Shown here piece after piece: positions 297 through 31,392 of a stretch of 31,894 nt of DNA (its first letter is position 1; each line of letters begins with the position of its first letter). Position numbers and translations under genes: made by a program. The notes beneath the pieces were generated by a model. The model was not told the origin of the DNA, did no database searches, and saw only the letters and a list, made by a program, of their open reading frames with translations. Where the stretch lies: IMG/VR virus record IMGVR_UViG_2558860161_000001. One strand, written 5' to 3'. This DNA comes from a virus (lineage: Duplodnaviria > Heunggongvirae > Uroviricota > Caudoviricetes).

Positions 297-686
297 TTAC
301 TCCTTTTTCCCTGTATCGGCATCAGGTTCGCCATCAAACAGTTTGCCCTGCATCCGATCCAGTTCTTCTTTTCTGACCCGCTTCACCACGCTGTAAACCC
401 ACTGTAGTGAAACACCAAATTTGCGGGCCAGTTCGTGATGGTTGCGCCCGTCAAACTCCAGGAAAATTTCCCGGTCGCGCTGGCTGACCTTCCAGACCAT
501 GCCCATCGGAAAATAGACGTTTTGCCCACCCCAGACCTGCATCATGCGGTTCGCGACGGCCTGACCAATCTGGTCGGCAACTGCGGGTTCGATATCAATA
601 ATCTCGCGGACAGTCTCAGAGGTATGCTGTGCCAGTTCCACCAACAGTTCCGGCCCTTTACTACGAAACTGATTCAGGTCGCTCAT
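297..686 (-). CDS. mor: Mor/C-family transcriptional activator (Mu middle operon regulator homologue)
   Basis: Translation has the Mor/C C-terminal HTH signature (GGQNVYFPMG ... FNGRNHHELARKFGVSLQWVYSVVKR) resembling Mu Mor. Start moved to the internal ATG at 684..686, which has a GGGAG Shine-Dalgarno and an ATGA overlap with the upstream stop. Last gene of the leftward early operon. Confidence 0.8.
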   Translation of the reverse strand: MSDLNQFRSKGPELLVELAQHTSETVREIIDIEPAVADQIGQAVANRMMQVWGGQNVYFPMGMVWKVSQRDREIFLEFDGRNHHELARKFGVSLQWVYSVVKRVRKEELDRMQGKLFDGEPDADTGKKE

Positions 687-1111
687 TGCTTCACTCCCGC
701 AGCTCTGCGCTGCCACTTCTTCAGTTTCTCAATCACGCTACTTGCCTGCTCATTGCTGAGCCAGCGTAACGCGCTGATGCCGGTTTCCCGTTTAACCCAC
801 AGCGCCAGCGCCTGCTCTGAACTGTCACGGACGATGCCTGCGGCAGCCATTTCAAGCCATAGCGCACGGATTTTCTTTGACTGCGGATGGCTGTCGAGCG
901 GTAAGCCGGACTTGGCTTTCCCGGCAGGCTTAATGCGAAAGCCTTTCTTTTTCATTGATTCCAGCACGCGGTTTAGCTGTGGGGTATCCATCCCTTTGGT
1001 TGAGGCTTTGCCGGTCAGCCCCTGTAGCATCTGGCGGTAGGTGTCCTCATCCATCTGGAGGTCGCTGCGGGCAATATGAATGAGTTGAATAAGACGCTGC
1101 TTAGTCATCAT
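683..1111 (-). CDS. gemA: GemA-like protein (Mu gp16, DUF1018 family)
   Basis: Translation MMTKQRLIQLIHIARSDLQMDEDTYRQMLQGLTGK...NRVLESMKKKGF matches the conserved GemA N-terminal motif. ATG at 1109..1111 is preceded by an AAGGAG Shine-Dalgarno. The longer track ORF (to 1300) was rejected. Confidence 0.75.
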   Translation of the reverse strand: MMTKQRLIQLIHIARSDLQMDEDTYRQMLQGLTGKASTKGMDTPQLNRVLESMKKKGFRIKPAGKAKSGLPLDSHPQSKKIRALWLEMAAAGIVRDSSEQALALWVKRETGISALRWLSNEQASSVIEKLKKWQRRAAGVKQ

Positions 1112-10018: not shown

Positions 10019-10121
10019 TATCCGTAAGCCTTTTGCAATCAATGAAAATATGGCAGGCTAGTCTGGTCTCGCGAGACTGACTGAACCCTGGTCGGCTCAC
10101 AGTGCATACCTGTGGGTTGAT

Positions 10122-10165
10122 GACCAGCCTGGTGTTACCGCACCGGGCTGGTCGTTCTTTCAAAG
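10122..10165 (+). other. Composite hairpin (GACCAGCC ... GGCTGGTC with inner GGTG/CACC) followed by GTTCTTTC; terminator-like element or small RNA 3' end
   Basis: Inverted repeats at 10122..10129 and 10146..10153 with an inner 4-bp stem, then a T-rich run. Lies in the 247-bp intergenic region between the methyltransferase and the lysis genes. No upstream plus-strand gene explains a terminator here. Confidence 0.35.
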
Positions 10166-10265
10166 CCATCATGCGGTTCACGTCTGCATCCTCACTATTA
10201 ACGCTGTTTAAAATCCCTTTCCCCGACCATTTGTGATGCTGTCTCCACTACACAAGGAGACGCTC

Positions 10266-16992: not shown

Positions 16993-16994
16993 CG

Positions 16995-17453
16995 ATGGCT
17001 TCCGATAACCTGGTCAATGTCACCATTAACGATGAATCCCTGCGCCGGAGCCTCCGTGCGCTGGATCTTGCTGCCACAGACCTGGAACCCGCGATGCGCA
17101 AAATCGCCGGAACCCTGCTGGCGGAAACGCAGTTTAACTTTCTCGATGAGGGGCGTCCGGGGTGGACTCCCTCGCTGGCAGCGCAGGAGCGCGACGGGCA
17201 AACGCTGCAGGATACCGGGCGTCTGATGGGGTCGGTATCAACCGACCATGACGACCGGCAGGCAGCGGTTGGCACTAATGTCGTTTATGGGCCGATTCAC
17301 CAGTTTGGGGGTAAAACGGGGCGTAATGAGTCCGTTGAACTTCCTGCCCGTCCGTTCCTGCCGCTGACGGGGGACGGTGAGCTGCAGCCTGAAGTGGTTG
17401 TCCCTATCCTCGATACGATTGTCCGCCATCTTGAAGCAGCGGCCCGTCGCTGA
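16995..17453 (+). CDS. Virion morphogenesis protein (Mu G-like)
   Basis: 152 aa with the VGTNVVYGPIHQFGG ... ARPFLPL signature of the family. Confidence 0.7.
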   Translation: MASDNLVNVTINDESLRRSLRALDLAATDLEPAMRKIAGTLLAETQFNFLDEGRPGWTPSLAAQERDGQTLQDTGRLMGSVSTDHDDRQAAVGTNVVYGPIHQFGGKTGRNESVELPARPFLPLTGDGELQPEVVVPILDTIVRHLEAAARR

Positions 17454-17497
17454 GTTTTGTCTCTGCAGGCGGGTGATTTATCATTGCCAGCCGCTGA

Positions 17498-17533
17498 GGG
17501 GCTGTATTACCTTTATAAAGGCTTTACAGCCCC
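17498..17533 (+). terminator. Long hairpin after the G-like gene (9-bp stem GGGGCTGTA/TACAGCCCC enclosing the palindrome CCTTTATAAAGG), followed by GCTTTG
   Basis: Inverted repeats at 17498..17506 and 17525..17533 with the 12-bp palindrome 17510..17521 in the loop. Weak U-tract. Confidence 0.4.
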
Positions 17534-17635
17534 CGCTTTGCACCACTATTCGCCCGCAGCGTGACATTCCCCGTACTGATACCCCCGATTTTTTCTAAAG
17601 CAGATTAAAAGCGCTGCTGACGCTTTTTCCACAGA

Positions 17636-17663
17636 CTGTCCCCGACAACGTAACGCGGGACAG
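17636..17663 (+). promoter_or_regulatory. Stem-loop (CTGTCCC ... GGGACAG) whose 3' arm contains the only SD-like GGGA, 4 nt upstream of the I-gene start
   Basis: Inverted repeat at 17636..17642 and 17657..17663, with ATG at 17668. Possible translational control of the protease/scaffold gene. Confidence 0.3.
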
Positions 17664-17667
17664 CAAA

Positions 17668-18765
17668 ATGCCAGCCATTCACATTTTTAAAGCCGGTACT
17701 CATACCGATATGCACGGCACGAAATTGCCGTTCACGCAAAGCGATCTTGCCGCCTGCGTGAAAGCCTATGACCCGTCCGTCCATGAAGCACCACTCGTTA
17801 TCGGCCACCCCAAAACGGAAGACCCGGCGTGGGGCTGGGTGAAATCCCTGTCGCTTAACGGCGGCGATCTGCTGGCTGAGCCTGACCAGCTCGACCCGCA
17901 GTTTGCCGAACTGGTGGGCAACGGGCGCTTCAAGAAGGTCTCAGCCTCGTTCTATCTCCCGGACTCACCGAACAACCCGAAGCCCGGCACGCTTTACCTG
18001 CGTCATGTCGGCTTTCTGGGGGCGCAGCCACCGTCCATTAAGGGGCTTAAGCAGGTTTCGTTTGGTGAGAAAGAAGAAGGCGTCGTGGAGTTTGCCGACT
18101 GGAGTGATATCACCAACGCCTCTTTATGGGGCCGTCTGCGCGATTTTCTGATCGCCCAGTTCGGGCTGGACGAGACCGACAAGGTGCTTCCTTCATGGCA
18201 GGTGGACTCCCTGCGTGAAGAGGCTTACCGCGACACCGGGAAGTCTGAACCGGACTTCAGTGAACACAATCCCACCCCTCAAAAAGAGAACAGCACCATG
18301 ACTGAAGAAGAAATCAAAGCGCTTCAGGCGGAAAACACGCGTCTGAAAGCGGAAGCCACCCAGCGGGCGGAACAGGAAGCGAAGGCTAAGCAGGACAAAC
18401 TGCACGCGGACAACGTCTCCTTTGCCGAGAAGCTGGTTGGCGATGGCCGACTGGCTCCTAAAGCGAAGTCGGTTGTCGTGGCCATTCTGGACGCGGTCTC
18501 TGCAGGCGACAAGCCGGTTGAGTTTGCCGAAGGCGATATCCGCACCCCTCTGGCCACGGCGTTTAAGACGCTGCTGGACAGCACTGAGCCGGTACTGAAT
18601 TTCAGTGAGCACGCGACCAAAGACCGCGTGAACACGGAGATCAAAACGACGTCAGCAGAGTTCGCTGAAGCCGACCCGGAACGTCTGGCGCTGCATCAGA
18701 AAGCGCTGGAACTGTCGAAAAAAGAAGGCATCAGCTACGACGCTGCTGTCTCCCGCTGCCTGTAA
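17668..18765 (+). CDS. Head protease/scaffold protein (Mu I-like)
   Basis: 365 aa. N-terminal Mu I-type domain (MPAIHIFKAGTHTDMHGTKLPFTQSDL...) and an acidic/coiled-coil C-terminal scaffold-like region. Confidence 0.8.
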   Translation: MPAIHIFKAGTHTDMHGTKLPFTQSDLAACVKAYDPSVHEAPLVIGHPKTEDPAWGWVKSLSLNGGDLLAEPDQLDPQFAELVGNGRFKKVSASFYLPDSPNNPKPGTLYLRHVGFLGAQPPSIKGLKQVSFGEKEEGVVEFADWSDITNASLWGRLRDFLIAQFGLDETDKVLPSWQVDSLREEAYRDTGKSEPDFSEHNPTPQKENSTMTEEEIKALQAENTRLKAEATQRAEQEAKAKQDKLHADNVSFAEKLVGDGRLAPKAKSVVVAILDAVSAGDKPVEFAEGDIRTPLATAFKTLLDSTEPVLNFSEHATKDRVNTEIKTTSAEFAEADPERLALHQKALELSKKEGISYDAAVSRCL

Positions 18766-18778
18766 TTAAGGAGAGAAC

Positions 18779-19732
18779 ATGTCTGACTATTTAAAGGGTA
18801 AGCGCGTTGTTGACCCGGTGCTGACCAGCATCGCTCGCGGTTATAAAAATGCCGCATTTATCGGCGAACGCATCTTCCCCATTGTCCAGACCGATAAGGA
18901 AGGTGTGACCGTCCCGACCTTCGGTAAATCCGCCTTTGTTGAGTACGACACCGAGCGTGCCGTGGGGGCTGACAGTAACGTCCTGGTACGTGAGAAGACC
19001 GGCAAACTGGATCTGGTTCTTAACGAGCACGATCTGGCCGCGCCGGTGGACTACCGCGAGCAGGCGGAGTCGATGTTCAACGAAGAGGCCAAGGCCATTC
19101 GTCGCGTGACCAGTGGCGTCAACCTGAAGCGCGAACTGTATGCGGCCCGTCTGGCGCAGGACAAAAACGTTTACCCGGCATCGTCCGTTAAAGCACTGGC
19201 AGTTGCTGAACGCTGGGTCGGTGGTAAAGGTGATCCAATTGGCATTATTGAAGGTGGCATTGAGGCGGTACGTAACAAAACCGGCCTGCGCCCAAACCTG
19301 ATGACCATGGGGGCCAGCGTCATGTCGCTGCTGAAGTTCCACCCGGCGATTCAGGCCGCGATTGGAGCCAACGAGCGCAAGCGTATCACCATCGAAATTC
19401 TGAAAGACCTTTTCCAACTGGAAGATGTGGCGATCGGCGAGCCGGTCTCCATGGCCTCCATGAAAGACGCGCAGAACAAGGACAAAGTCCCGACCGATAT
19501 CTGGGGTGACAACCTGATGCTGCATTACGTTGGCAAACCGCAACCAGGCACCGACAGCGCCGACGAAAACGAGCCGTCATTCGGTTACACCCTGCGCCGT
19601 AAAGGGATGCCGGTGGCGGATAAATACGACGGTGTCGGCGGCAAAGTGAAGTACTGCCGTTATACCGATATCTACAAAGTCGCCGTGGTCGGTGGCGATG
19701 CCGGGTATCTCGTCACCAACATTGTGAAATAA
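18779..19732 (+). CDS. Major capsid protein (Mu T-like)
   Basis: 317 aa with AAGGAGAG Shine-Dalgarno. Positioned after the protease/scaffold gene; sequence fits the Mu T major head subunit family. Confidence 0.85.
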   Translation: MSDYLKGKRVVDPVLTSIARGYKNAAFIGERIFPIVQTDKEGVTVPTFGKSAFVEYDTERAVGADSNVLVREKTGKLDLVLNEHDLAAPVDYREQAESMFNEEAKAIRRVTSGVNLKRELYAARLAQDKNVYPASSVKALAVAERWVGGKGDPIGIIEGGIEAVRNKTGLRPNLMTMGASVMSLLKFHPAIQAAIGANERKRITIEILKDLFQLEDVAIGEPVSMASMKDAQNKDKVPTDIWGDNLMLHYVGKPQPGTDSADENEPSFGYTLRRKGMPVADKYDGVGGKVKYCRYTDIYKVAVVGGDAGYLVTNIVK

Positions 19733-19742
19733 GGAGACGGTC

Positions 19743-20099
19743 ATGGGTACAACTCAACAGGTCATTCTGACCACCACCGTGACGGCCAGCGCGGCGCTGA
19801 CGCAACAGCGCTTTGTCGGTGCCGATAATGGCCCCTGTCAGGCCGGTGCCGTGGCGCTCGGTGTGGCAGAGGTGGATGCTGCTGCCGGTGATGTAACGCC
19901 GGTCAACGTACTGGGTATTGTTGCCGTCGAGGCTGGTGCTGCGATTGCTAAAGGGCAGAACGTCCAGTCGGATGAGAATGCCTGCGCCGTTCCCCAGACA
20001 GCCGCATCGGGCGAGACCCCGGCGGGCATTTCTGCCGGGATTGCGCTGGATGAGGCGCTGGCCGAAGGTGACGTTATCCGTATCCTGCGCGGGGTGTGA
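19743..20099 (+). CDS. Small Gly/Ala/Val-rich head protein (possibly DUF2190-like)
   Basis: AAGGAGA Shine-Dalgarno before ATG at 19743. 118 aa located directly after the major capsid gene. Confidence 0.5.
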   Translation: MGTTQQVILTTTVTASAALTQQRFVGADNGPCQAGAVALGVAEVDAAAGDVTPVNVLGIVAVEAGAAIAKGQNVQSDENACAVPQTAASGETPAGISAGIALDEALAEGDVIRILRGV

Positions 20100-20100
20100 T

Positions 20101-20547
20101 ATGTACTGCACCCTCGCGGATTTGCTTGAACAGGTTCCTGAGCGGACGCTAATCCAGCTCACCAATGAGGAGCTGGACTTCGACTCGCCCGCGACGGTGA
20201 AAACTGAGGTGGTGGACAGCTGTATTCGCTATGCCGATGAACTGATTGATGCCCATCTGCGCGGACGCTATACCCTGCCGCTGGCGGAAATACCGACCGT
20301 TCTGCGGGACATTGCCATCACGCTGGTGCGTTACCGGCTCTACACCCGCCGCCCGGAAGGGGCTGTCCCGGATACCGTGAAGGATGACCACAAAGAGGCC
20401 CGGCGACAGCTGGAGGGGTTGCGTGACAACAAGCTGACGCTGGGGCTGCAGTCCACTCAAAAAGACGTGCCTGAGTCCGGTGAAATCCGGGCGCGGGCAC
20501 GTCGCCCCACCTTTGGCGGGCGCGATGGCTTACTGGAGAAATACTGA
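20101..20547 (+). CDS. Mu gp36-like protein (DUF1320 family)
   Basis: 148 aa. Position and sequence fit the gp36 head-tail connector family. Confidence 0.6.
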   Translation: MYCTLADLLEQVPERTLIQLTNEELDFDSPATVKTEVVDSCIRYADELIDAHLRGRYTLPLAEIPTVLRDIAITLVRYRLYTRRPEGAVPDTVKDDHKEARRQLEGLRDNKLTLGLQSTQKDVPESGEIRARARRPTFGGRDGLLEKY

Positions 20548-21011
20548 TGAACGTTCTGCCCGTCCTCGATGCAGTACTGACCCGGTTACGGGAGAAGCTG
20601 CCGCAGCTGCAGGTGGAGTACTTCCCGGAGAAACCGGCTGAGTATCGCCTGAATCATCCGGTTGGGGCGCTGCTGGTGAGCTATGCCGGGTCGCGCTTCG
20701 ATAAGCCGAATGATATCGGTGCGGTGCTCCAGACTCAGACTATCCAGCTCTGCGTCACGGTAGTTTTCCGCCAGCTCAACGGTAAAAGAGGCGCGATTGA
20801 CGTTCTGGATGCAGTCCGTCGCATCCTCGGTGGCTACACCCCGCCGAACTGCCGCCGTCGCATCTGGCTGACCCGCGAGGTGTTTATCGGTGAGGTCAAG
20901 GGGCTGTGGCAGTACGCCCTCGACTTTGCCACTGAAAGCGTCTTTATCGAAGACAGCGATTTACCGTCCGGCCCGCTGTTAACCGAAGTGAACTATGAGG
21001 AAAGCGAGTGA
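20547..21011 (+). CDS. Mu gp37-like protein (DUF1834 family)
   Basis: 154 aa with TGATG overlap to the upstream gene. Confidence 0.6.
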   Translation: MNVLPVLDAVLTRLREKLPQLQVEYFPEKPAEYRLNHPVGALLVSYAGSRFDKPNDIGAVLQTQTIQLCVTVVFRQLNGKRGAIDVLDAVRRILGGYTPPNCRRRIWLTREVFIGEVKGLWQYALDFATESVFIEDSDLPSGPLLTEVNYEESE

Positions 21012-21262
21012 TGAAAGAATACCGCTATTCCGGCCCGGCCAGCGGCGTCACGCTGTCGGACGGAACCGAAATCCTGCTCTGGCCGGGGAAGAATGTTTCC
21101 CTGCCGGAGGAGCATGACTATGTGAAGGTACTGGTGGCGCTGAAGCATCTGACACCGGTATCTGAAGAGACTAAACCCGCCAGCACACCGGTTGTGCAGT
21201 CACCAAAGCGCAGGAACGCCGGCGACAACGATGTGAAAACGGAGGACTCCCATGGCAGCTAA
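21011..21262 (+). CDS. Hypothetical protein (83 aa)
   Basis: ATG at 21011 overlapping the upstream stop. Precedes the sheath gene. Confidence 0.45.
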   Translation: MKEYRYSGPASGVTLSDGTEILLWPGKNVSLPEEHDYVKVLVALKHLTPVSEETKPASTPVVQSPKRRNAGDNDVKTEDSHGS

Positions 21263-22679
21263 CTATCTGCATGGCGTCGAAACCATTGAGGTGGAAAACG
21301 GTGCCCGCCCGGTAAAAATGGTGAAGTCTGCCGTCATTGGCCTGATTGGTACCGCCCCGATGGGGGACGTCAATACGCTGGTGCAGTGCCTGTCTGAGAA
21401 AGATGCAGCGGCGTTTGGCAGCCAGCTCACCGGTTTTACCATTCCGCAGGCGCTGGATGCGATCTACGACCATGGGGCAGGCACCGTTCTGGTCATTAAC
21501 GTGCTTGATCCGGCTGTGCATAAAACCGCTGTGGCCGATGAAGATGTAACGTTCGACAAGGCGACGGGCAAGGCACAGCTGGCTAATCCGGTGGTCGCGC
21601 AGCTGGTACTGAAACCGGACAGCGATGGCCAGCCTTATGTGGAAGGTCAGGACTACTCGCTTGATGCACAGACCGGAGTGATTACCAACCTTGGTAAGAG
21701 CATTGCCGCAGATGCAACGGTGAAGGCCAGCTATAACTATGCTGATCCAACTAAAGTCACCCCGGCTGATATCATCGGTGCCGTTAACGCTGCGGGCAAC
21801 CGTACCGGCATGAAGCTGCTTAACGACAGCTTCAACCTGTTTGGCTACTTCGCAAAAATACTGATTGCCCCGGTCTTCTGCACCCAGAACAGCGTCTCGG
21901 TTGAGCTTATCGCCATGGCTGAGAAGCTGGGCGCGGTGACCTACATCGACGCGCCGATTGGTACCACTTTTGCGCAGGCTCTGGCGGGGCGTGGCCCGGA
22001 AGGCACCATTAACTTCAACACCAGCTCCGACCGCGTCCGTCTGTGCTACCCGCACGTCAAGGTGTACGACGCGGCCACCAACAGCGAACGGCTGGAGCCG
22101 CTGAGCCAGCGTGCTGCAGGTCTGCGTGCCAAAGTCGACCTGGACAAGGGCTACTGGTGGTCGTCCTCCAACCAGGAAATTCTGGGTATCACCGGCGTGG
22201 AGCGCCAGCTGTCGGCAATGATTGACGACCCGCAGAGCGAGGTGAACCTGCTCAACGAACAGGGCATCACCACGGTCTTCAGCAGCTACGGCAGCGGCCT
22301 GCGTCTGTGGGGCAACCGTATGGCGGCATGGCCAACGGTCACCCATATGCGCAACTTTGAGAACGTTCGCCGTACCGGTGATGTGATCAACGAGTCCCTG
22401 CGTTACTTCAGCCAGCAGTACATCGACATGCCGATTACCCAGGCGCTGATTGATGCGCTGACGGAGTCGGTCAACGCCTACGGTCGCAAGCTGATTGGCG
22501 ACGGTGCGCTGCTGGGCTTCAGCTGCTGGTTTGATCCGGCCCGCAACGAAGAGACGGAGCTTGCCGCCGGTCACCTGTTGCTGAGCTACAAATACACGCC
22601 ACCACCACCGCTGGAGCGACTGACGTTTGAGACCGAGATCACCTCGGAATATCTGTTAACCCTGAAGGGGAATAGCTGA
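21252..22679 (+). CDS. Tail sheath protein (Mu L-like)
   Basis: 475 aa, followed immediately by the tube gene. Conserved C-terminal sheath region (LRLWGNRMAAWPT...). Confidence 0.85.
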   Translation: MAANYLHGVETIEVENGARPVKMVKSAVIGLIGTAPMGDVNTLVQCLSEKDAAAFGSQLTGFTIPQALDAIYDHGAGTVLVINVLDPAVHKTAVADEDVTFDKATGKAQLANPVVAQLVLKPDSDGQPYVEGQDYSLDAQTGVITNLGKSIAADATVKASYNYADPTKVTPADIIGAVNAAGNRTGMKLLNDSFNLFGYFAKILIAPVFCTQNSVSVELIAMAEKLGAVTYIDAPIGTTFAQALAGRGPEGTINFNTSSDRVRLCYPHVKVYDAATNSERLEPLSQRAAGLRAKVDLDKGYWWSSSNQEILGITGVERQLSAMIDDPQSEVNLLNEQGITTVFSSYGSGLRLWGNRMAAWPTVTHMRNFENVRRTGDVINESLRYFSQQYIDMPITQALIDALTESVNAYGRKLIGDGALLGFSCWFDPARNEETELAAGHLLLSYKYTPPPPLERLTFETEITSEYLLTLKGNS

Positions 22680-23200
22680 TGGCAAAGATTGAGATCAACC
22701 GCATCACGAATGCCAACATCTACCTGGATGGCGCTAACCTGCTGGGCCGGGCCGAGGAGGTCAAACTCCCGGACGTCTCCATGACCATGCAGGAGCATAA
22801 GGCGCTGGGGATGGTGGGCAAAGTGGAACTCCCGGCAGGCTTCGACAAGCTGGAGGGTGAGATCAAGTGGAACAGCTTTTACCGCGACGCGATGCTGTCT
22901 GCTGCGAACCCGTATAAGTCGCTGGCGCTGCAGTGCCGTTCCAGCGTCCAGCGCTACAGTTCGCAGGGGCTGATTGACGAAATCCCGCTGGTCACATTCC
23001 TGACGATCATGTTCAAGAAGAACCCGCTGGGGACGTTCAAACAGCACGAGAACGCCGAGTTCTCTAGCAGCTTCACCTGCACGTACATCAAGCAGGTACT
23101 GGATGGTGAAGAGCTGCTGGAGCTGGACTATCTGGCCAACATCTTCCGAGTCGGCGGCGTTGACCAGTTGACTGACTACCGCATCAATATCGGGGGCTGA
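22679..23200 (+). CDS. Tail tube protein (Mu M/P2 FII-like)
   Basis: 173 aa with TGATG overlap to the sheath gene. Confidence 0.8.
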   Translation: MAKIEINRITNANIYLDGANLLGRAEEVKLPDVSMTMQEHKALGMVGKVELPAGFDKLEGEIKWNSFYRDAMLSAANPYKSLALQCRSSVQRYSSQGLIDEIPLVTFLTIMFKKNPLGTFKQHENAEFSSSFTCTYIKQVLDGEELLELDYLANIFRVGGVDQLTDYRINIGG

Positions 23201-23202
23201 CG

Positions 23203-23484
23203 GTGACCGTCGAGATTGAAGATAAAGGCGGGAACTGTGGTTCGATTGGCATGGGAAATGGTACGTGGTTTACCATCCTTGATATTCCGGGGGTGGAAAA
23301 CCTTTTTAATACCCAGAAAACCAATGATCCGATTGACTGCACCCGCTCTAAAGCACGGAAGCTCGCTGACCTGATTGAGGCATGGGAGCCACCTGACCAC
23401 TGGTTCACCGGCATCGGCAAATCTGAAGGAAAGGCGCTTCTTATCGCCTTCCTGCGTAACTGCAAAGGCTTTCGCACTCACTGA
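23203..23484 (+). CDS. Orphan small ORF (93 aa) between the tube and chaperone genes, unknown function
   Basis: GTG start 2 nt after the tube stop, with a GGGGG stretch upstream. Followed immediately by a strong intrinsic terminator. Coding status is uncertain. Confidence 0.4.
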   Translation: MTVEIEDKGGNCGSIGMGNGTWFTILDIPGVENLFNTQKTNDPIDCTRSKARKLADLIEAWEPPDHWFTGIGKSEGKALLIAFLRNCKGFRTH

Positions 23485-23491
23485 TATCACA

Positions 23492-23514
23492 GGGGCTTCG
23501 GCCCCTTTCTTCTT
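23492..23514 (+). terminator. Rho-independent terminator (GGGGC-TTCG-GCCCC then TTTCTTCTT)
   Basis: Perfect 5-bp GC stem with a UUCG tetraloop and a U-rich tail. Confidence 0.65.
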
Positions 23515-23530
23515 AATCCCCTTTAATATC
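23510..23530 (+). promoter_or_regulatory. 21-bp motif TTCTTAA-N3-CCTTTAATATC (copy 1), candidate late promoter/activator site
   Basis: Near-identical copy at 29326..29346. Both lie in late-operon intergenic regions 30-50 nt upstream of a start codon and contain a -10-like TAATAT. Confidence 0.35.
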
Positions 23531-23582
23531 CGTCACGTCCACCTCCAGACATACTGCTCTGAACTTACACAGGAGCACGATC

Positions 23583-23897
23583 ATGTCACAGACCCAATCC
23601 GATACTTTTAAGCTGTCTTACCCCTTCACCACCGCAGCAGGCACCAGAGTTGAGCAGGTTGAACTGAAACGCCTGACGGTCAAAGACCTGAAGCAGGTGC
23701 GCAAAATCAGTAAAGACCCGGCTGACTGGGACGAACCGCTCATTGCCCGTAGCACCGGTATTCTCCCCGAAGACCTCGATAACATGGATCTTGCCGATTA
23801 CATGGAGCTGCAGAAACGATTTCAGCAAGTCACTGGGCTGGGCAAGAGCGACGAAAACGCTGATGCAGGCGCAGGGGCTGCTGGCGAGGTGGTTTAG
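23583..23897 (+). CDS. Tail assembly chaperone (P2 gpE-like)
   Basis: AGGAG Shine-Dalgarno 7 nt before ATG at 23583. 104 aa. Located between the tube and tape measure genes. Confidence 0.6.
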   Translation: MSQTQSDTFKLSYPFTTAAGTRVEQVELKRLTVKDLKQVRKISKDPADWDEPLIARSTGILPEDLDNMDLADYMELQKRFQQVTGLGKSDENADAGAGAAGEVV

Positions 23898-24000
23898 ATT
23901 TCAGCCGGGGGAGATTGATGCCCTCGATACTGACGATCTGGAGATGTGGCTGGAGCAGGCTGAAGAGCAAATCAAAAGCGAGTTCGGCGACAATCAGTAA
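23743..24000 (+). CDS. Putative frameshift-dependent C-terminal extension of the tail chaperone (E'-like), in the +1 frame
   Basis: Overlapping ORF in the +1 frame relative to the chaperone, open from 23743 and extending about 100 nt past the chaperone stop, with no good independent start. Geometry resembles G/GT or E/E+E' pairs. Confidence 0.35.
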   Translation: MPVAPVFSPKTSITWILPITWSCRNDFSKSLGWARATKTLMQAQGLLARWFRFQPGEIDALDTDDLEMWLEQAEEQIKSEFGDNQ

Positions 24001-24013
24001 CGACTCATCACTT

Positions 24014-24036
24014 AACAGCCGCCCCTCGCGGCTGTT
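24014..24036 (+). terminator. Hairpin AACAGCCGC-CCCTC-GCGGCTGTT upstream of the tape measure gene (possible attenuator)
   Basis: 9-bp stem. The T-rich sequence is not immediately adjacent. Confidence 0.35.
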
Positions 24037-24092
24037 CTGCATGGCTCTCAGACATTTTCCTTCCGTTTTTCCGCTTTCAGAGGATAACAACC

Positions 24093-26558
24093 GTGGCCAG
24101 TGAATTTTCAGTCGGCGTCATTATTGGCGGCATTGTCGGAAGCAGCTTCCGCTCAGCCGTCAGTGGCACCCGACGCGCCCTAGATTCCCTGGGCGATACA
24201 TCGCGCCGCCTGCAGGAACGCCAGAATGCCTTAACTCGTGCAACTGAACGTTATGGCCAGTTAGGCTCTTCCCGGATGCAGCGCCTCAACAGCGAACTGC
24301 TGCGGGTAAGCCGCACAATGGAGCAAATTGAACGCCAGCAGCGCCGTCTGTCAGCAGTATCAGCCACCAGTGACGCGCTGAAAGCTAACCGCATGGCGCT
24401 CTATGGCCAGGGAGCAGAGACTTATGGTATCGCCCGAACGCTGGGCGCACCGGTCATGGCCTCTGTCAAACAATATTCATCGTTTGAATCCCAGCTACGC
24501 GATATCAGTGTCACCGGTGATCTGGATTCAAGGCAGGAACAGGCCATCGGTACTGCCATTCGTCGGGCATCCCTGCAGGTCAATCAGCTCCAGGAATCTC
24601 TGTTGAGCGGCGTTGGTCAACTGGTTGCCGATGGCATGAATCCGCAGCAGGCAGCGACCTTTGCCGGGATGCTCGGTAAAGCGGCCACGGCCACCAAAGC
24701 AGATATGACTGACCTCGCAAAAATGACCTATGCCTTTAGCGATGCGCTGAAAATTACCGATGCCAAAGAGCTGGAGCAGGCGTTTGGGATTGCGGCAACC
24801 GGGGCCAAGCTAGGCTCGTTTGAGCTGAAGGATATGGCGAAAGCGTTACCCGGTATGGCCAAAGCCTTCGCTGCACGTGGTATTTACGGCAAAGACGCCA
24901 TAACCCAGATCGTAGCCAGTCTGGAAGTGGGTAAAGGCAGCGGCTCAGCGGAAGAGGCCGTCACCAATATGTCAAACTGGCTGGCGGCAATGGGACGCGG
25001 AGATACCACGCAGAAATACGCTAAGGCTGGCGTGGATTACCAGGGATCAATGCAAAATTATGTAGCCCAGGGGTTCTCTCAATATGAAGCCTCCCTGATG
25101 ATTGCCAACCGGTTTATCGACGGTAAAGGCAAGGCATTTGTGCAGCAATGGAAGGCGGCAGGCTCAAGAGGCGATCAGGAAGGCCAGCAGAGGCTGATGG
25201 AGTCCTTCGGACTGGCGGAAGTCTTTACCGATATCCAGACCGTGAACCATCTACTGTCTATGCGTCAGGGCTGGGATAAGTACCAATCTAACAAGCAGGA
25301 AATGAACACTCCCTCTGCAATGTCTACGCTGGACAAGGATGCAGCGAAACAAAATGATACGCTCGAAGGACGTTGGCGCAGAACGCAGATTGGGTTTAAC
25401 GACTCGGCCATTAGCATCGGAGAATCATTACGTCCGGCGTTGATCCAGCTGGGGGAAACATTCATCCCCTTAATGAACAGCGTTGGAAAATGGATTGCGG
25501 CTAATCCGCAACTCGTGAGCGGCACAATTCAAGTGATTGGCGCATTACTTGCGTTCAAGATGGCAACCATCGGCCTCAAGCTCGGGCTGAATCTCCTTAT
25601 TTCACCTTTCGTCAACGTCTGGAAAAATGCCGTGCTCCTGCGGGCCAACTGGCTTCGCCTGACACTCGCGCTGGGTGAAGGCGGCAAACTTCGCTGGCTG
25701 GTGACCGGCTTCAGCGCCGTCGCCAGAGGAGCCAGAACACTGGGTGGTGTGCTGTCAGGTGGGCTGGTTCGCGGCATTATGATCGCCGGGCGTGCCGTTC
25801 TCTGGATTGGGCGGGCATTGCTGATGAATCCCATTGGTCTTGCTATCACCGCCGTCGCGGCGGCGGCTTATCTTATTTATCGTAACTGGGGGGCTGTCAG
25901 CAGTTGGTTCAAACAGCGCTGGGCTGACATTAAAGAGGCTTTTAACGGCGGTATCGTGGGGATTGGTAAACTGCTGATTAACTGGTCGCCGGTTGGTCTG
26001 CTCTATAAAGCCTTTGCGGCTGCGCTGAAATATCTCGGCGTTGATCTGCCCGCGAAGTTCACTGACTTCGGTGGCCATCTTATCGACGGGCTGATAAACG
26101 GCATCAAAAACAAATGGGAGTCGCTCAAAACCACCGTCACAGATATGGGTGACAGTGTCGGCGGCTGGTTCAAGGAAAAGCTGGGTATCCATTCGCCGAG
26201 CCGCGTGTTTATGGGCTTTGGTGACAACATCGCGCAGGGTGCCGCTATCGGCCTGCAGCGTACCACACCACTGGCAGCGCTCGCCGGACAACGCCTGGCA
26301 ACAGAGATGACTCCCGATGTTCCCCGTATCCCGTCGCCGGAAATCATGGCTGCGGGATATTCAGGTCGTGGCGCAGTTGCAACTGGCGGCGGAACATCTG
26401 GCGGTATCCAGGTCAGCTTTAATCCTCAGTTTTTCCTCAATGGCAAAGAAACCGCAGCGCCTGCCGGACTGACCGGCGCACTGAATATGAGCCTGCATGA
26501 ACTGGAGAAAATGCTGGAGCGTCTGCTGGCTCAGAAACAACGTCGGGGGTACGAATAA
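24093..26558 (+). CDS. Tail tape measure protein
   Basis: 821 aa with a GTG start after AGAGGA. Helical N-terminal half, Gly/Ala-rich hydrophobic segments in the middle, position after the chaperone pair. Confidence 0.85.
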   Translation: MASEFSVGVIIGGIVGSSFRSAVSGTRRALDSLGDTSRRLQERQNALTRATERYGQLGSSRMQRLNSELLRVSRTMEQIERQQRRLSAVSATSDALKANRMALYGQGAETYGIARTLGAPVMASVKQYSSFESQLRDISVTGDLDSRQEQAIGTAIRRASLQVNQLQESLLSGVGQLVADGMNPQQAATFAGMLGKAATATKADMTDLAKMTYAFSDALKITDAKELEQAFGIAATGAKLGSFELKDMAKALPGMAKAFAARGIYGKDAITQIVASLEVGKGSGSAEEAVTNMSNWLAAMGRGDTTQKYAKAGVDYQGSMQNYVAQGFSQYEASLMIANRFIDGKGKAFVQQWKAAGSRGDQEGQQRLMESFGLAEVFTDIQTVNHLLSMRQGWDKYQSNKQEMNTPSAMSTLDKDAAKQNDTLEGRWRRTQIGFNDSAISIGESLRPALIQLGETFIPLMNSVGKWIAANPQLVSGTIQVIGALLAFKMATIGLKLGLNLLISPFVNVWKNAVLLRANWLRLTLALGEGGKLRWLVTGFSAVARGARTLGGVLSGGLVRGIMIAGRAVLWIGRALLMNPIGLAITAVAAAAYLIYRNWGAVSSWFKQRWADIKEAFNGGIVGIGKLLINWSPVGLLYKAFAAALKYLGVDLPAKFTDFGGHLIDGLINGIKNKWESLKTTVTDMGDSVGGWFKEKLGIHSPSRVFMGFGDNIAQGAAIGLQRTTPLAALAGQRLATEMTPDVPRIPSPEIMAAGYSGRGAVATGGGTSGGIQVSFNPQFFLNGKETAAPAGLTGALNMSLHELEKMLERLLAQKQRRGYE

Positions 26559-27442
26559 TGTTTGCGGTACTGGGTGATATTGAGTTTGAACTGATTACCT
26601 ACTGGGACGGCTTTGAGGCCACTTTCGGTGTCGATTATGCGGAACATGCCCGCATAGAGGGTAAGCCCGGCCTGCAGTTCGTCGGCGACAAGCTGGACGA
26701 AATCCAGATAAGCCTGGTCTTCCATCAGCATTATTGTGTGCCCGACGTGGAGCTGGCGAGACTGAGAACGGCCATGAAAGCCCATCAGGCGCTGGCACTG
26801 GTTTTCGGCAACGGTGACTATCGCGGCTGGTTTGTGATTACCGACGTGACCGCGACCAGCGAGCAGACCGACAGCACAGGCAACGTGCTGGCCGTCAATG
26901 CCACCGCATCTCTCCGGGAGTACATCGGCGACCCGAAGAACCCGCTACAGCCTCCTGCGATACGCACGCAGGTTCCCGGCGTCGGGGCGGTCTCCGGTGC
27001 CGTACCTTCTCCCTCCGGGGTGGCGCAGTACGTTCGCGACGGCGTCAACTATGCCAAACAGGCGCAGTCTGTTCTCCAGACCACCATCAGCGCCGTTCGG
27101 GTGGCGCAGAAAATGAAGGATAACCCCGCCGTCGCGCTGACCCGCGTGCCGGGGCTGATGAGCGGACTGGGCAACGTGTCCGGGGCGTTAGGCCAGAGCG
27201 TTCCGGCATTCAATGCGCTCTCTGAATCCATGCCTGATGCCATCAGTCTGGCCAGAGCCACCAGCGATGCGGCCACGTATGTACAACAGGCACAGTCTTC
27301 GCTGAGCGGCGTGGACGGCAGCAATATCGCGGCAGCGCTGGATGCCGTTTCCGGGCAGCTTAACTCCGCCAGCACCACCTTCACTCGTATGTCGCCGGGG
27401 TTAAGCACCATGGCAGCTAAAATTCTGGCGAGGAGTGTGTGA
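26558..27442 (+). CDS. Tail protein (P2 gpU-like N-terminal domain; Mu N position)
   Basis: N-terminus MFAVLGDIEFELITYW...QFVGDKLDEIQISLVFH resembles the gpU family. TAATG overlap with the tape measure gene. Confidence 0.6.
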   Translation: MFAVLGDIEFELITYWDGFEATFGVDYAEHARIEGKPGLQFVGDKLDEIQISLVFHQHYCVPDVELARLRTAMKAHQALALVFGNGDYRGWFVITDVTATSEQTDSTGNVLAVNATASLREYIGDPKNPLQPPAIRTQVPGVGAVSGAVPSPSGVAQYVRDGVNYAKQAQSVLQTTISAVRVAQKMKDNPAVALTRVPGLMSGLGNVSGALGQSVPAFNALSESMPDAISLARATSDAATYVQQAQSSLSGVDGSNIAAALDAVSGQLNSASTTFTRMSPGLSTMAAKILARSV

Positions 27443-27654
27443 TGTTTCTTGAACATGTTACCCGTGACGGAGAGCGCTGGGACTCTCTGGCATGGCAGTA
27501 CTACGGCGACCCACTGGGCTATCCCCGGATAATTGCCGCCAATCCGCACGTGGCCATTACGCCGGTGCTGCCCTCCGGGCTGTTGTTACTGATCCCGGTT
27601 ATCGAGGCTGAAGAAGCCACCACAGAAGAGGATATTGCCCCATGGCTGAGATAA
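27442..27654 (+). CDS. Tail protein X-like (P2 gpX family)
   Basis: About 70 aa. DGERWDSLAWQYYGDPLGYPRIIAANPHVAITPVLPSGLLLLIP resembles gpX. Confidence 0.65.
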   Translation: MFLEHVTRDGERWDSLAWQYYGDPLGYPRIIAANPHVAITPVLPSGLLLLIPVIEAEEATTEEDIAPWLR

Positions 27655-28811
27655 ACAGCACTGCACAGGTCGCATCAGCGTTAACCGGCGTCAGCGATGT
27701 TCTGAGTCCGGTGTTCACGCTGTGGTATCTGCAGAAGAACATCACCACCGATATCGCCCCCTATGTCACCCGCGTAACCTACAGCGATAACATCAAAAGC
27801 GAGTCCGATACCATTGAGGTGGAGCTGGACGACACCGATGGCCGCTGGCTGGATAAGTGGTATCCGGGCAAGGGTGACACGCTGACGCTGAAAATGGGTT
27901 ATCAGGGCGAGAAGCTGCTGTCCTGTGGTACGTTCTCGATAGACGAGATCGAGGTGAGTTCGCCCGCGTCCGTTGTCGCTATCCGGGGCGTGGCCACGTC
28001 GGTCAACAACGCCCTGCGGACAAAATCCAGTCGTGGTTTCGAGAGCACCACGCTGGCGGCTATAGCCGGACGGATTGCCAAAAAGCATCAGCTGAAGCTG
28101 GTTGGCAGTATTGAGTCCATCAAAATTGACCGGGTGACCCAGTATGCTGAAACGGACGTGGGCTTCCTGCGTCGACTGGCCAGCGAGTATGGTTATGCCG
28201 TGAAAGTGGTCAGCGACCAGCTGATTTTCTCTCATCTGGCCACGCTGCGCGATCAGGAGCCGGTAAAACAGTTGAAGCCACAGGATGTGGCCAGCTTTTC
28301 CCTGCGTGACACCATCAACCGCGTCTACAAATCCGCAAAGGTAAAACACCAGAAGAGCAGCGATAAAAAGCTGATCGTCTACGAAGCTGATGGCGGTACC
28401 AGCGAAAGCGACAAACAAACCAAAGGCGGTAAGGTCACCAGTGCCGACTCACTGAAGGTCAACAGCCGCGTCAGTGATCCGGACAGCGCCCGGATTAAAG
28501 CAGATTCGGCGCTGGCCAGGCATAACGAATACCAGCAGAACGGCTCGCTGTCGCTGATGGGGACGCCTCAGTTGACTGCAGGCAACAAAATTGAACTGGT
28601 GGGTTTTGGTCAGTTATCCGGGCCATGGCTGATAACTACTGCCCGCCATGCGTTTGACCGTAACAGCGGCTACATCACCGAACTGGAAGTGGCACGAGGG
28701 CCGGTTACGCAGGGCAAAGCGAAGAAAGGTAAAAAGACCGGAAAAACCCAGACGCTGACCGTCTATAAACCGGACGGCAGCACGTCCACGGTAATAAAGG
28801 AGAAAAAATAA
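27642..28811 (+). CDS. Late control D-like tail/baseplate hub protein (P2 gpD/Mu P-like)
   Basis: 389 aa following the X-like gene. Sequence character fits the gpD family. Confidence 0.75.
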   Translation: MAEINSTAQVASALTGVSDVLSPVFTLWYLQKNITTDIAPYVTRVTYSDNIKSESDTIEVELDDTDGRWLDKWYPGKGDTLTLKMGYQGEKLLSCGTFSIDEIEVSSPASVVAIRGVATSVNNALRTKSSRGFESTTLAAIAGRIAKKHQLKLVGSIESIKIDRVTQYAETDVGFLRRLASEYGYAVKVVSDQLIFSHLATLRDQEPVKQLKPQDVASFSLRDTINRVYKSAKVKHQKSSDKKLIVYEADGGTSESDKQTKGGKVTSADSLKVNSRVSDPDSARIKADSALARHNEYQQNGSLSLMGTPQLTAGNKIELVGFGQLSGPWLITTARHAFDRNSGYITELEVARGPVTQGKAKKGKKTGKTQTLTVYKPDGSTSTVIKEKK

Positions 28812-29323: not shown

Positions 29324-29325
29324 CC

Positions 29326-29346
29326 TTCTTAAACGCCTTTAATATC
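29326..29346 (+). promoter_or_regulatory. 21-bp motif TTCTTAA-N3-CCTTTAATATC (copy 2), overlapping the first of two tandem hairpins before the W-like gene
   Basis: Matches copy 1 at 23510..23530. Hairpins AACGCC/GGCGTT (29332..29352) and GGGGCA/TGCCCC (29361..29376) follow. ATG at 29378. Confidence 0.35.
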
Positions 29347-29377
29347 GGCGTTCCCGCACAGGGGCAATACTGCCCCC

Positions 29378-29725
29378 ATGAAAACAACTTCCGTATTCTG
29401 GCAACCGGCCCTGCAGGCCCCTGGCGAAATCGTCCGGGGGCTGGATGATATCTGGCAGGCCATTCAAATCATCCTGCGAACTCCTCGCGGCAGCGACCCG
29501 CATCGCCCGGAGTTCGGCAGCAACCTGCATCTTTATATCGACTGGCCCATCGACCGGGCTATCCCACATGTGGTGCGCGAGTCCGTTGATGCCATCCGGC
29601 GCTGGGAGCCTCGCTGCCAGCTTATGTCGGTTAAACCCGCCGTCGACGGTGAACATCTTACGCTCCGGGTGAGCTGGAAAGGCTCTGACGGACAGCCCCG
29701 GACTCAGGAGCTTTTATGGCGCTGA
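29378..29725 (+). CDS. Baseplate wedge protein (GPW/gp25 family)
   Basis: 115 aa. IQIILRTPRGSDPHRPEFGSNL ... RWEPR aligns well with P2 gpW. Confidence 0.8.
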   Translation: MKTTSVFWQPALQAPGEIVRGLDDIWQAIQIILRTPRGSDPHRPEFGSNLHLYIDWPIDRAIPHVVRESVDAIRRWEPRCQLMSVKPAVDGEHLTLRVSWKGSDGQPRTQELLWR

Positions 29726-31390: not shown

Positions 31391-31392
31391 TT

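What the first reader, a model, noticed from the sequence alone, without database searches (positions are those of the whole stretch)
23510..23530. Shared 21-bp element TTCTTAA-N3-CCTTTAATATC in two late intergenic regions
The same motif occurs at 23510..23530 (after the terminator downstream of the tube and orphan ORF, before the chaperone gene) and at 29326..29346 (between the V-like and W-like baseplate genes). It contains a -10-like TAATAT with no properly spaced -35, the architecture expected of an activator-dependent late promoter such as the C-dependent promoters of Mu. It may mark Mor-dependent internal late promoters, but this is inference from two copies only.
Basis: partly seen in the sequence, partly recalled or inferred. 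Interest (0 to 1): 0.5.

Follow-up and report, generated by a model that had tools for sequence, protein, structure and literature searches.

The report
Mor-type late promoter boxes in prophage
The repeated 21-base motif is most likely the docking site for the prophage's Mor-type activator protein in front of late (virion and lysis) gene blocks; it works like the well-studied promoters of phage Mu, so it is a tidy but fairly ordinary find.

Summary
Both 21-mers sit exactly where stated and form the best direct 21-mer repeat in the window. The window is a BcepMu-like transposable prophage with one Mor/C-family activator gene. The motif is not a -10 element. It is a dyad, TTAA-N6-TTAA, and exactly 23 nt downstream of it lies a real -10-like hexamer (CATACT at 23550-55, AATACT at 29366-71). 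There are four such composite sites, not two, all on the + strand ahead of late gene blocks: lysis (10198), head (17595), tail chaperone and tape measure (23513), and baseplate W (29329). Chance expectation is 0.01-0.09 sites.

The same pattern run on phage Mu picks out Pm, the experimentally defined Mor-dependent promoter (GTAA-N6-TTAA-N23-TATCCT). Its published Mor dyad, centred at -43.5, coincides with these half-sites. The architecture holds in over 150 related prophages from Enterobacterales, Burkholderiales and Pseudomonas, although the spacers have diverged.

The W promoter puts the A of the W start codon 7 to 9 nt after the -10 hexamer and there is no ribosome-binding site, which predicts a leaderless W mRNA.

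Verdict: new members of a known promoter kind. Nothing has been tested experimentally.

The parts
23510..23530 (+). Activator (Mor) box of the tail chaperone / tape-measure promoter 'P_E': ttcTTAAtcccctTTAAtatc, with half-sites at 23513-16 and 23523-26. This is the first copy named in the finding.
   Evidence: Conserved upstream of the chaperone gene in 64/74 and 50/54 related loci.
23550..23555 (+). -10-like hexamer CATACT of P_E, 23 nt after the right half-site. Predicted start is about 23562 (A). The 5' UTR is about 20 nt and carries the SD cAGGAGc ahead of the ATG at 23583.
   Evidence: the hexamer is nAnnnT at this fixed distance in all listed relatives
29326..29346 (+). Activator (Mor) box of the baseplate promoter 'P_W': ttcTTAAacgcctTTAAtatc, with half-sites at 29329-32 and 29339-42. 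This is the second copy named in the finding.
   Evidence: Present upstream of W in 83 related loci.
29366..29371 (+). -10-like hexamer AATACT of P_W, flanked by the inverted repeat GGGGC / GCCCC.
29378..29380 (+). ATG of the W-like baseplate gene (29378-29725). Its A is the 7th nt after the -10 hexamer, there is no SD, and no alternative in-frame start follows the upstream stop. This is the predicted +1 of a leaderless mRNA.
   Evidence: gap between hexamer and ATG is 6 nt in 63 loci, 7 nt in 8 and 8 nt in 12
10195..10215 (+). Third Mor box, lysis-operon promoter 'P_lys': ctaTTAAcgctgtTTAAaatc.
   Evidence: found upstream of holin homologues in 27/31 loci
10235..10240 (+). -10-like hexamer GATGCT of P_lys. 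Predicted start is about 10247. The holin ATG at 10266 is preceded by aAGGAGa.
17592..17612 (+). Fourth Mor box, head-operon promoter 'P_head': tttCTAAagcagaTTAAaagc. The left half-site is CTAA.
   Evidence: found upstream of the protease/scaffold gene in 63/78 loci
17632..17637 (+). -10-like hexamer CAGACT of P_head. Predicted start is about 17644-45. The protease/scaffold gene ATG is at 17668.
297..716 (-). The only Mor/C-family activator gene in the window. It is the last gene of the leftward early operon, after a GemA-like gene. The likely true start is the ATG at 686.
   Evidence: Pfam Mor, E = 1.3e-42. 30% identical to Mu Mor and 35% to Mu C. No second paralogue found. The recognition-helix region is conserved among BcepMu-like homologues.
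23491..23506 (+). Intrinsic-terminator-like hairpin AGGGGCTTCGGCCCCT. Its T-run runs into the left edge of the P_E Mor box and closes the head / sheath / tube transcription unit.
17437..17452 (+). Terminator-like hairpin after the G-like gene, upstream of P_head.
10122..10161 (+). GC-rich inverted repeat GACCAGCC...GGCTGGTC followed by GTTCTTTC, upstream of P_lys. Read directly from the sequence as a terminator-like element.
   Evidence: sequence reading only; not scored by a tool

Best explanation
The 21-bp element is the binding site for the prophage's single Mor/C-family activator. It sits at about -52 to -32 of a sigma-70-dependent late promoter, where it replaces the missing -35 element. 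It is a dyad of two AT-rich half-sites one helical turn apart (yTAA-N6-TTAA). A weak -10 hexamer (nAnnnT) follows 23 nt after the right half-site. The window has four such promoters, each heading a block of late genes: lysis plus packaging, head through tail tube, tail chaperone through spike V, and baseplate W onward. The first three come directly after a terminator-like hairpin.

Inferred mechanism, by analogy with Mu Pm: the early leftward operon ends in the mor-like gene. The Mor-like protein then binds the dyad and recruits RNA polymerase through alpha-CTD and sigma region 4, and transcription starts 7-8 nt after the -10 hexamer. That makes a two-tier cascade (early to late) with no separate C protein.

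At the W promoter the predicted start is the A of the W start codon, so W would be made from a leaderless mRNA.

Shown here: the sequence architecture, its statistics, its identity with Mu Pm, and its conservation. Inferred: binding by Mor, activator dependence, and the start sites.
For: (1) YTAA-N6-TTAA-N23-nAnnnT occurs exactly 4 times in the window. All four are on the + strand and intergenic, ahead of the holin, head protease, chaperone and W genes. Expected counts are 0.01 and 0.085 for nTAA. TTAA-N6-TTAA alone occurs at 3 places against 0.12 expected.
(2) On the + strand of the whole Mu genome, the same regex at spacing 23 hits only Pm (L089 9174: GTAAagccggTTAA-N23-TATCCT). PMC4287176 places the Mor dyad at -51..-36, centred at -43.5. 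It reports permanganate-reactive bottom-strand T at -12, -4, -1, +1, +3 and +4. These fit the Mu sequence only if +1 is 9224, which puts the centre of GTAA-N6-TTAA at exactly -43.5.
(3) Mu late promoters have a -10, no -35, and a 16-bp dyad at -43.5 (PMC2582627). None of the four window sites has a -35-like hexamer. This rests on direct reading; the promoter scan of 12000-31894 calls no sigma-70-type promoter at the three sites it covers, and P_lys lies outside the scanned range.
(4) A Mor-family gene is present and is the only one.
(5) Phylogenetic footprint. The W site is kept in 83 loci from at least 25 genera, with divergent spacers, invariant half-sites, and A2/T6 of the hexamer intact. 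The E site is kept in 64/74 loci. In 80 independent viral contigs the sites are H 63/78, E 50/54 and L 27/31, with 159 hits on the + strand and 19 on the - strand in 1.35 Mb.
(6) Pseudomonas phage Komp_PAO1_1 carries its own variant, CTCTTTAAACCYGATTAAAAGCC, at all four equivalent positions.
(7) In the Salmonella remnant a 3.3-kb gtrABC cassette is inserted between V and the motif, and the motif stays attached to W.
Against: There is no experimental evidence for this phage group: no mapped starts, no binding data, no dependence test. None was found in the searchable literature.

The composite pattern was refined on the same four sites it then counts. Its independent support is the Mu Pm hit and the relatives.

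Some relatives lack or have degenerate sites. The BcepMu E site is TTAA-N7-TGAA. The Salmonella-type lineage and phage Bise have no E promoter. Lysobacter W boxes have TTCG as the right half-site.

By strict analogy with Pm, where +1 is the 8th nt after the hexamer, the W start would fall on the U of AUG rather than the A.

Which protein binds is inferred only from the presence of a single Mor homologue.
Confidence: 0.85

Rival explanations
1. One reading: TAATAT inside the motif is the -10 of an activator-dependent promoter. Transcription would start about 7 nt downstream (about 23536 and 29352), and the activator site would lie further upstream.
For: TAATAT matches the -10 consensus at 5 of 6 positions in both window copies and in many enteric and Burkholderia W sites.
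Against: The hexamer is not kept as a -10 in relatives. It reads TAAAAG (Pseudomonas lineage), TAATCG (Bise), TACAAG (Lonsdalea), TAATAC or TAATAA, losing the essential final T, while the TTAA half-site stays. No TAA-N6-TTAA or other shared element lies 23 nt upstream of it; at site 1 that position is the terminator stem. This model also does not explain the nAnnnT hexamer at a fixed 23 nt downstream in over 150 loci, or the exact match to Mu Pm geometry.
Confidence: 0.05
2. The motif is bound by some other factor (a host nucleoid protein such as IHF or Fis, or another phage protein), or it acts at the RNA level in read-through transcripts rather than as a Mor box.
For: The sites are AT-rich islands in 56% GC DNA. 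The W site is followed by a GC inverted repeat that could fold in RNA. No binding data exist.
Against: The half-sites and spacing equal those of the footprinted Mor site of Mu Pm. There is no match to the IHF core WATCAA-N4-TTR (direct reading; consensus recalled from memory). No Rfam family matches anywhere in the window. The palindromic AT half-sites with a 4-6 nt GC centre cannot form a stable RNA hairpin. All sites are strand-specific and fixed in distance to a -10-like hexamer.
Confidence: 0.06
3. A chance or neutral repeat, for example a leftover of recombination between modules, with no function.
For: Pairs matching 18/21 are not rare: there are 11 in the window. Both sites sit at module boundaries where cargo genes are inserted in relatives.
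Against: It is the top-scoring pair in the window. It sits in two of the very few late intergenic gaps. It is conserved across orders of Proteobacteria while flanking spacers diverge.
Confidence: 0.02

Closest known systems
Phage Mu middle promoter Pm (Mor-dependent)
   Same: Half-sites and geometry are the same: xTAA-N6-TTAA, then 23 nt, then a weak -10 hexamer, with no -35. The dyad centre is 35.5 bp upstream of the last base of the hexamer (centre at -43.5 in Pm). Pm is also immediately preceded or overlapped by an intrinsic terminator. The activator is a Mor-family protein encoded after gemA at the end of the early operon.
   Different: In Mu this architecture drives a single middle promoter whose product C then activates the late promoters. 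Here four copies head the late operons directly and no C paralogue exists. The activator is only 30% identical to Mu Mor. Binding and activation are untested here.
Phage Mu late promoters Plys, PI, PP, Pmom (C-dependent)
   Same: The role is the same: four promoters with a -10, no -35, and an imperfect dyad near -43.5 (PMC2582627). P_lys and P_head occupy the same genome positions as Mu Plys and PI. The -10 regions resemble each other (Mu TAGACTG and CAAACTG against window CAGACTG and CATACTG).
   Different: Mu C boxes read TTAT-N6-ATAA (Pmom) or end in ATAA, and sit 24 rather than 23 nt from the hexamer. The third and fourth promoters are in different places: here before the chaperone and before W, in Mu before P and before com/mom.
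Phage P2 late promoters (Ogr-dependent; PV heads the V-W-J-I-H-G operon)
   Same: The tail module is P2-like (FI, FII, E, T, U, X, D, V, W, J, I). An internal late promoter sits at the V/W boundary. From my memory only, not verified in the library: the P2 gene V transcript is reported to be leaderless, as predicted here for W.
   Different: The Ogr-type box TGT-N12-ACA (box form and its position near -55 recalled from memory) is absent from all four sites; the window's 4 matches lie elsewhere and are fewer than chance. The activator here is Mor-family, not an Ogr zinc-finger protein. The promoter precedes W, not V.

Membership tests
Mor/C-family activator-dependent promoters of Mu-like phages (Pm type) | A recognisable -10 hexamer with no usable -35 hexamer and no extended -10 | tested here: met
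   GATGCT, CAGACT, CATACT and AATACT all have A2 and T6. The hexamers 16-18 bp upstream match TTGACA at no more than 2 of 6 positions, and no TGn precedes the -10 (direct reading). The sigma-70 consensus scan of 12000-31894 calls no promoter at the three sites it covers; P_lys lies outside the scanned range.
Mor/C-family activator-dependent promoters of Mu-like phages (Pm type) | An imperfect dyad-symmetry element overlapping the -35 region, centred near -43.5 | tested here: met
   The centre of yTAA-N6-TTAA is 35.5 bp upstream of the last base of the hexamer in all four sites. This is identical to Mu Pm, whose centre is -43.5 by published footprint and permanganate data. The position relative to the true +1 is predicted, not measured.
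Mor/C-family activator-dependent promoters of Mu-like phages (Pm type) | Half-site sequence like the footprinted Mor site of Pm (A-GTAA-N6-TTAA-T) | tested here: met
   The window sites read TTAA, CTAA, TTAA and TTAA, then N6, then TTAA. A regex built from them recovers Pm as the only + strand hit at spacing 23 in the Mu genome.
Mor/C-family activator-dependent promoters of Mu-like phages (Pm type) | A Mor/C-family activator encoded by the same element | tested here: met
   Window 297-716 (-): Pfam Mor, E = 1.3e-42. PDB sequence hits are Mu Mor 1rr7 and Mu C. It is the single copy.
Mor/C-family activator-dependent promoters of Mu-like phages (Pm type) | Activator binding to the box, and activator-dependent initiation 7-8 nt after the -10 | not testable with these tools
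   This needs EMSA or footprinting, reporter fusions with and without Mor, and 5'-end mapping. No such data for BcepMu-like phages were found in the library.
Mu C-dependent late promoters (strict sense) | A C-type box (TTAT-N6-ATAA, or a right half-site ATAA) 24 nt upstream of the -10 | tested here: not met
   The right half-site is TTAA and the spacing is 23 nt in all four window sites and nearly all relatives. Mu Plys, PI and Pmom have ATAA and 24 nt.
P2 Ogr/Delta-dependent late promoters | A TGT-N12-ACA dyad upstream of a -10 (box form and its position near -55 recalled from memory) | tested here: not met
   There are only 4 matches in the window (1338, 7229, 26629, 27438). None is near a late intergenic region, and this is fewer than the 6.45 expected by chance.
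Leaderless mRNAs (sub-claim for gene W) | The transcription start coincides with the A of the start codon; no 5' UTR and no SD | tested here: inconclusive
   The geometry fits. The A of the ATG is the 7th nt after the hexamer in 63 loci, the 8th in 8 and the 9th in 12. The base before the ATG is a pyrimidine in 51 of 52 distinct sequences. There is no SD and no alternative start codon. The actual 5' end is unmapped.

The most novel reading that the evidence does not exclude
In the whole BcepMu-like group the baseplate gene W would be translated from a leaderless mRNA that starts at its own AUG, made by a Mor-dependent promoter whose position is locked to the start codon. More broadly, the late promoters would couple translation to promoter of origin. 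The few bases between the -10 and the start site are complementary to the ribosome-binding region of the first gene (or, at W, form a GC hairpin abutting the AUG). Read-through RNA from upstream would therefore be poorly translated, while promoter-initiated RNA would be open.
Probability: 0.45. Interest if true: 0.45.

Novelty: new member of a known kind. Interest (0 to 1): 0.3.

Why it matters
This gives BcepMu-like transposable prophages a concrete, testable late-transcription map. These prophages are common in Enterobacterales, Burkholderia, Ralstonia and Pseudomonas, and often carry cargo such as O-antigen modification genes. The map has four Mor-type promoters, a two-step cascade with a single activator, and predicted start sites to the base.

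It shows that the Mu Pm architecture is the ancestral, general late-promoter design in this group rather than a Mu-specific middle promoter. It supplies a simple pattern (nTAA-N6-TTAA-N23-nAnnnT) for annotating such promoters and operon boundaries.

It also shows that cargo genes insert upstream of the promoter box, leaving the late operon intact. The predicted leaderless W mRNA would add a conserved phage example of leaderless translation in Gram-negative hosts.

None of this changes how Mor/C activators are thought to work.

Tried and rejected
2. An Ogr-type TGT-N12-ACA box was absent near the sites.
3. No known RNA family matched: Rfam gave 0 hits at gathering threshold over the whole window.
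4. I looked for a second Mor/C paralogue, which would imply a three-tier Mu-like cascade. None was found in the window, Komp_PAO1_1 or phiE255.
5. I tested covariation for the GC inverted repeat flanking the W -10 hexamer. With fixed columns, 58-73% of positions pair, but shifted registers pair about as often in these G/C runs. The result is inconclusive.
6. I tested whether the segment just upstream of the predicted start masks the SD in read-through RNA. Over 46 distinct E promoters the mean SD-unpaired probability was 0.28 for read-through RNA, 0.49 for promoter-initiated RNA and 0.35 for shuffled controls. Ten of 46 beat 95% of shuffles and the Photorhabdus lineage goes the other way. This is suggestive only.
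7. Literature searches for described BcepMu/Bcepmuvirus late promoters found nothing relevant. Searches to confirm that the P2 gene V mRNA is leaderless also found nothing. The original BcepMu paper (J Mol Biol 2004) is not in the library, so prior description cannot be excluded.

Full report
**Observation.** A search allowing three mismatches finds no further copy, and no shuffle reached two matches. That test is post hoc, so I also counted all same-strand 21-mer pairs with at least 18 matches. The window has 11, against 1-2 in shuffles, and this pair is the only one at 19/21. It is the best direct repeat in the window, but the repeat alone would not be compelling. Position and conservation carry the argument.

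**Context.** The window is a BcepMu-like (Bcepmuvirus-type) transposable prophage. Over the tested 1.6-kb tail segment (22600-24200) it is 99.8% identical to Klebsiella phage KP12 and 85% to E. coli phage PhiKM, and it shares gene order with Burkholderia phage BcepMu.
- The leftward early operon carries the transposase, a MuB-like gene, DUF3164 and GemA. It ends in a Mor-family gene at 297-716 (Pfam Mor, E = 1.3e-42).
- The rightward late region runs holin/lysis, terminase, portal, head protease, capsid, then a P2-like tail: sheath, tube, chaperone E, tape measure, U, X, D, V, W, J, I.
- Site 1 follows a terminator-like hairpin after the tube gene and a 93-aa orphan ORF. Site 2 lies in the 54-nt gap between V and W.

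**Anatomy.** The motif is a dyad: TTAA, six bases, TTAA.
- TTAA-N6-TTAA occurs at only three places in 31.9 kb, against 0.12 expected. The third is at 10198, upstream of the holin.
- Allowing CTAA on the left adds one site at 17595, upstream of the head protease/scaffold gene.
- In all four sites a hexamer of the form nAnnnT lies exactly 23 nt after the right half-site: GATGCT, CAGACT, CATACT, AATACT. In all four sites the next base is G.
- The composite YTAA-N6-TTAA-N23-nAnnnT has exactly four matches. All are on the + strand and intergenic, each ahead of a block of late genes. Expected counts are 0.01, or 0.085 with any base at the first position, with a maximum of 1 in 200 shuffles.
- No site has a -35-like hexamer (direct reading; the promoter scan of 12000-31894 calls none at the three sites it covers).
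- The first three sites are each preceded by a terminator-like hairpin.

**Comparison with Mu.** I fetched the Mu genome and ran the same pattern.
- On the + strand at spacing 23 it hits a single place, 9174: GTAAagccggTTAA, 23 nt, TATCCT. This is Pm, the Mor-dependent middle promoter.
- PMC4287176 states that Pm has a -10 but no -35, and that Mor binds a dyad at -51 to -36 centred at -43.5. It reports permanganate-reactive bottom-strand T at -12, -4, -1, +1, +3 and +4.
- Those six positions are all A on the top strand only if +1 is Mu 9224. That places the centre of GTAA-N6-TTAA at exactly -43.5.
- The window's motif therefore has the half-sites, the spacing and the distance to the -10 of an experimentally footprinted Mor site.
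- Mu's C-dependent late promoters have the same logic: a 16-bp imperfect dyad at -43.5, a required region from -52 to -34, a -10 and no -35 (PMC2582627). Their boxes end in ATAA and sit 24 nt from the hexamer.

**Activator.** The window's Mor-like protein is 30% identical to Mu Mor and 35% to Mu C. Its best solved relatives are those two proteins. It is the only family member in the window and in two complete relatives. The helix-turn-helix region (VSLQW[VI]Y...K) is well conserved among BcepMu-like homologues, in line with the conserved half-sites. A recent cryo-EM preprint reports that Mor and C bind such boxes as tetramers and contact alpha-CTD, sigma region 4 and the beta flap. I take that as the likely mechanism here, by inference.

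**Conservation of the W site.** An alignment-based search of one genome per species returned 80 loci from Enterobacterales, Burkholderiales, Pseudomonas, Lysobacter and others.
- The half-sites and A2/T6 of the hexamer are essentially invariant, while the 19-nt spacer and the N6 core vary freely.

**Conservation of the other sites.**
- The chaperone site is present in 64 of 74 distinct sequences.
- A second search seeded with the head protease gave 80 independent viral contigs. In these the exact composite lies directly upstream of the protease in 63/78, the chaperone in 50/54 and a holin homologue in 27/31.
- Over 1.35 Mb there are 159 hits on the + strand and 19 on the - strand.

**Two telling cases.**
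- Pseudomonas phage Komp_PAO1_1 carries its own version, CTCTTTAAACCYGATTAAAAGCC, at all four equivalent positions.
- In the Salmonella LT2-type remnant a 3.3-kb gtrABC cassette is inserted between V and the box, and the box stays attached to W.

**Exceptions.** The BcepMu chaperone site is degenerate. The Salmonella-type lineage and phage Bise lack the chaperone promoter. Lysobacter has a degenerate right half-site.

**Which hexamer is the -10.** In relatives that hexamer reads TAAAAG, TAATCG, TACAAG, TAATAC or TAATAA, so the final T is not kept, whereas TTAA is. The downstream hexamer keeps A2 and T6, the two positions a -10 needs most, at a fixed distance in essentially all loci. I therefore reassign the -10 to 23550-55 and 29366-71. 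Predicted starts are about 23562 and 29378, which is 32 nt rather than about 7 nt past the motif.

**Leaderless W (prediction).**
- At the W promoter the hexamer is followed by six bases and then the ATG.
- The gap is 6 nt in 63 loci, 7 in 8 and 8 in 12. The base before the ATG is a pyrimidine in 51 of 52 distinct sequences (listing).
- There is no Shine-Dalgarno sequence, and no other in-frame start codon after the upstream stop.
- By contrast the chaperone promoter has 5' UTRs of 20-60 nt with a clear GGAG.
- A promoter locked to the start codon is what a leaderless mRNA requires.
- In BcepMu and the Ralstonia phage the head protease gene shows the same geometry.
- The caveat is that in Pm the start is the 8th nucleotide after the hexamer, which here would be the U of AUG. 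The C-A step at the 6th and 7th positions favours the A, but only mapping can settle it.

**Model.** The early operon ends in the mor-like gene. Its product binds the four boxes and recruits RNA polymerase to promoters that otherwise lack a -35. Four late units follow, separated by terminators: lysis and packaging, head to tube, chaperone to V, and W onward. The cascade has two steps rather than Mu's three.

**Rivals.** I weighed three alternatives and give each low weight, for the reasons in the rivals section:
- binding by another factor, or an RNA-level role;
- a neutral or chance repeat.

No Rfam family and no Ogr-type box is present.

**Novelty and limits.** I found no description of late promoters for BcepMu-like phages in the searchable library, but the original BcepMu paper is not held, so prior mention cannot be excluded. 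The kind of element is well known. The new parts are the membership, the direct use of a Pm-type box at all late operons, and the leaderless-W prediction. Everything about binding, dependence and start sites is inferred.

Noticed in passing
window 17499-17535 (also L003 about 14860, L088 about 7095, L085 about 5035): A conserved palindrome CCTTTATAAAGG sits inside a longer inverted repeat (GGGGCTGTA...TACAGCCCC) 82 nt upstream of the head-operon Mor box. TTATAAAG lies 62-103 nt upstream of that box in at least 39 distinct relatives, including Burkholderia, Ralstonia and Pseudomonas phages. It occupies the same genome position, between the G-like and I-like genes, as the strong gyrase site annotated in Mu. 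Its function is unknown.
   Followed up: partly
L084 16660-19985 (Salmonella Infantis, LT2-type prophage remnant STM4196-4219): A gtrABC O-antigen glucosylation cassette is inserted between the V stop codon and the W promoter box. It is flanked by a direct repeat of about 33 nt (ggcccggtaagcgcagaagcgccaccgggca) at about 16726 and 19866. The V-W gap is therefore a cargo insertion point that leaves the W promoter intact.
   Followed up: partly
window 10241-10260, 17638-17660, 23556-23576: The 6-7 nt right after the -10 hexamers, just upstream of the predicted starts, are complementary to the ribosome-binding region of the first gene: GTCTCC/GGAGAC, GTCCC/GGGAC, GCTCTG/CAGGAGC. Read-through RNA could mask the SD while promoter-initiated RNA could not. 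A folding test on 46 distinct relatives gave a modest, non-uniform signal.
   Followed up: partly
window 29360-29377 and the equivalent in relatives: A GC-rich inverted repeat brackets the W -10 hexamer (GGGGC-AATACT-GCCCC) and ends one base before the ATG. Similar repeats with different sequences occur in Burkholderia (GCGGC-AACATG-GCCGC), Ralstonia and Salmonella-type relatives. The fixed-column pairing test was inconclusive.
   Followed up: partly
L085 17445-17470; L151, L159, L165 and other Pseudomonas loci: In the Pseudomonas lineage a GC hairpin followed by a T-run, which looks like an intrinsic terminator, sits inside the promoter between the Mor box and the -10 hexamer. This is reminiscent of Mu Pm overlapping the early-operon terminator.
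   Followed up: no
window 23203-23484: A 93-aa orphan ORF lies between the tube gene and the terminator, with only a weak sub-threshold DUF7739 hit. It is present in KP12 and PhiKM and absent from BcepMu and the Salmonella remnant. It may be a cargo gene co-transcribed with the head-tail operon.
   Followed up: no
window about 10042-10233 versus L001 6493-7679: KP12 carries an extra 188-aa gene (KP12_281, positionally equivalent to BcepMu gp19) between the Dam methylase and the lysis promoter. The window lacks it. In KP12 the left half-site of the lysis box is ATAA instead of TTAA.
   Followed up: no
L003 14937-14990; L088 7168-7220: In BcepMu and the Ralstonia phage the head protease/scaffold gene ATG lies 6-7 nt after the -10-like hexamer with no SD. 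That gene may therefore also be leaderless there, whereas the enteric relatives have a UTR of about 24 nt.
   Followed up: no
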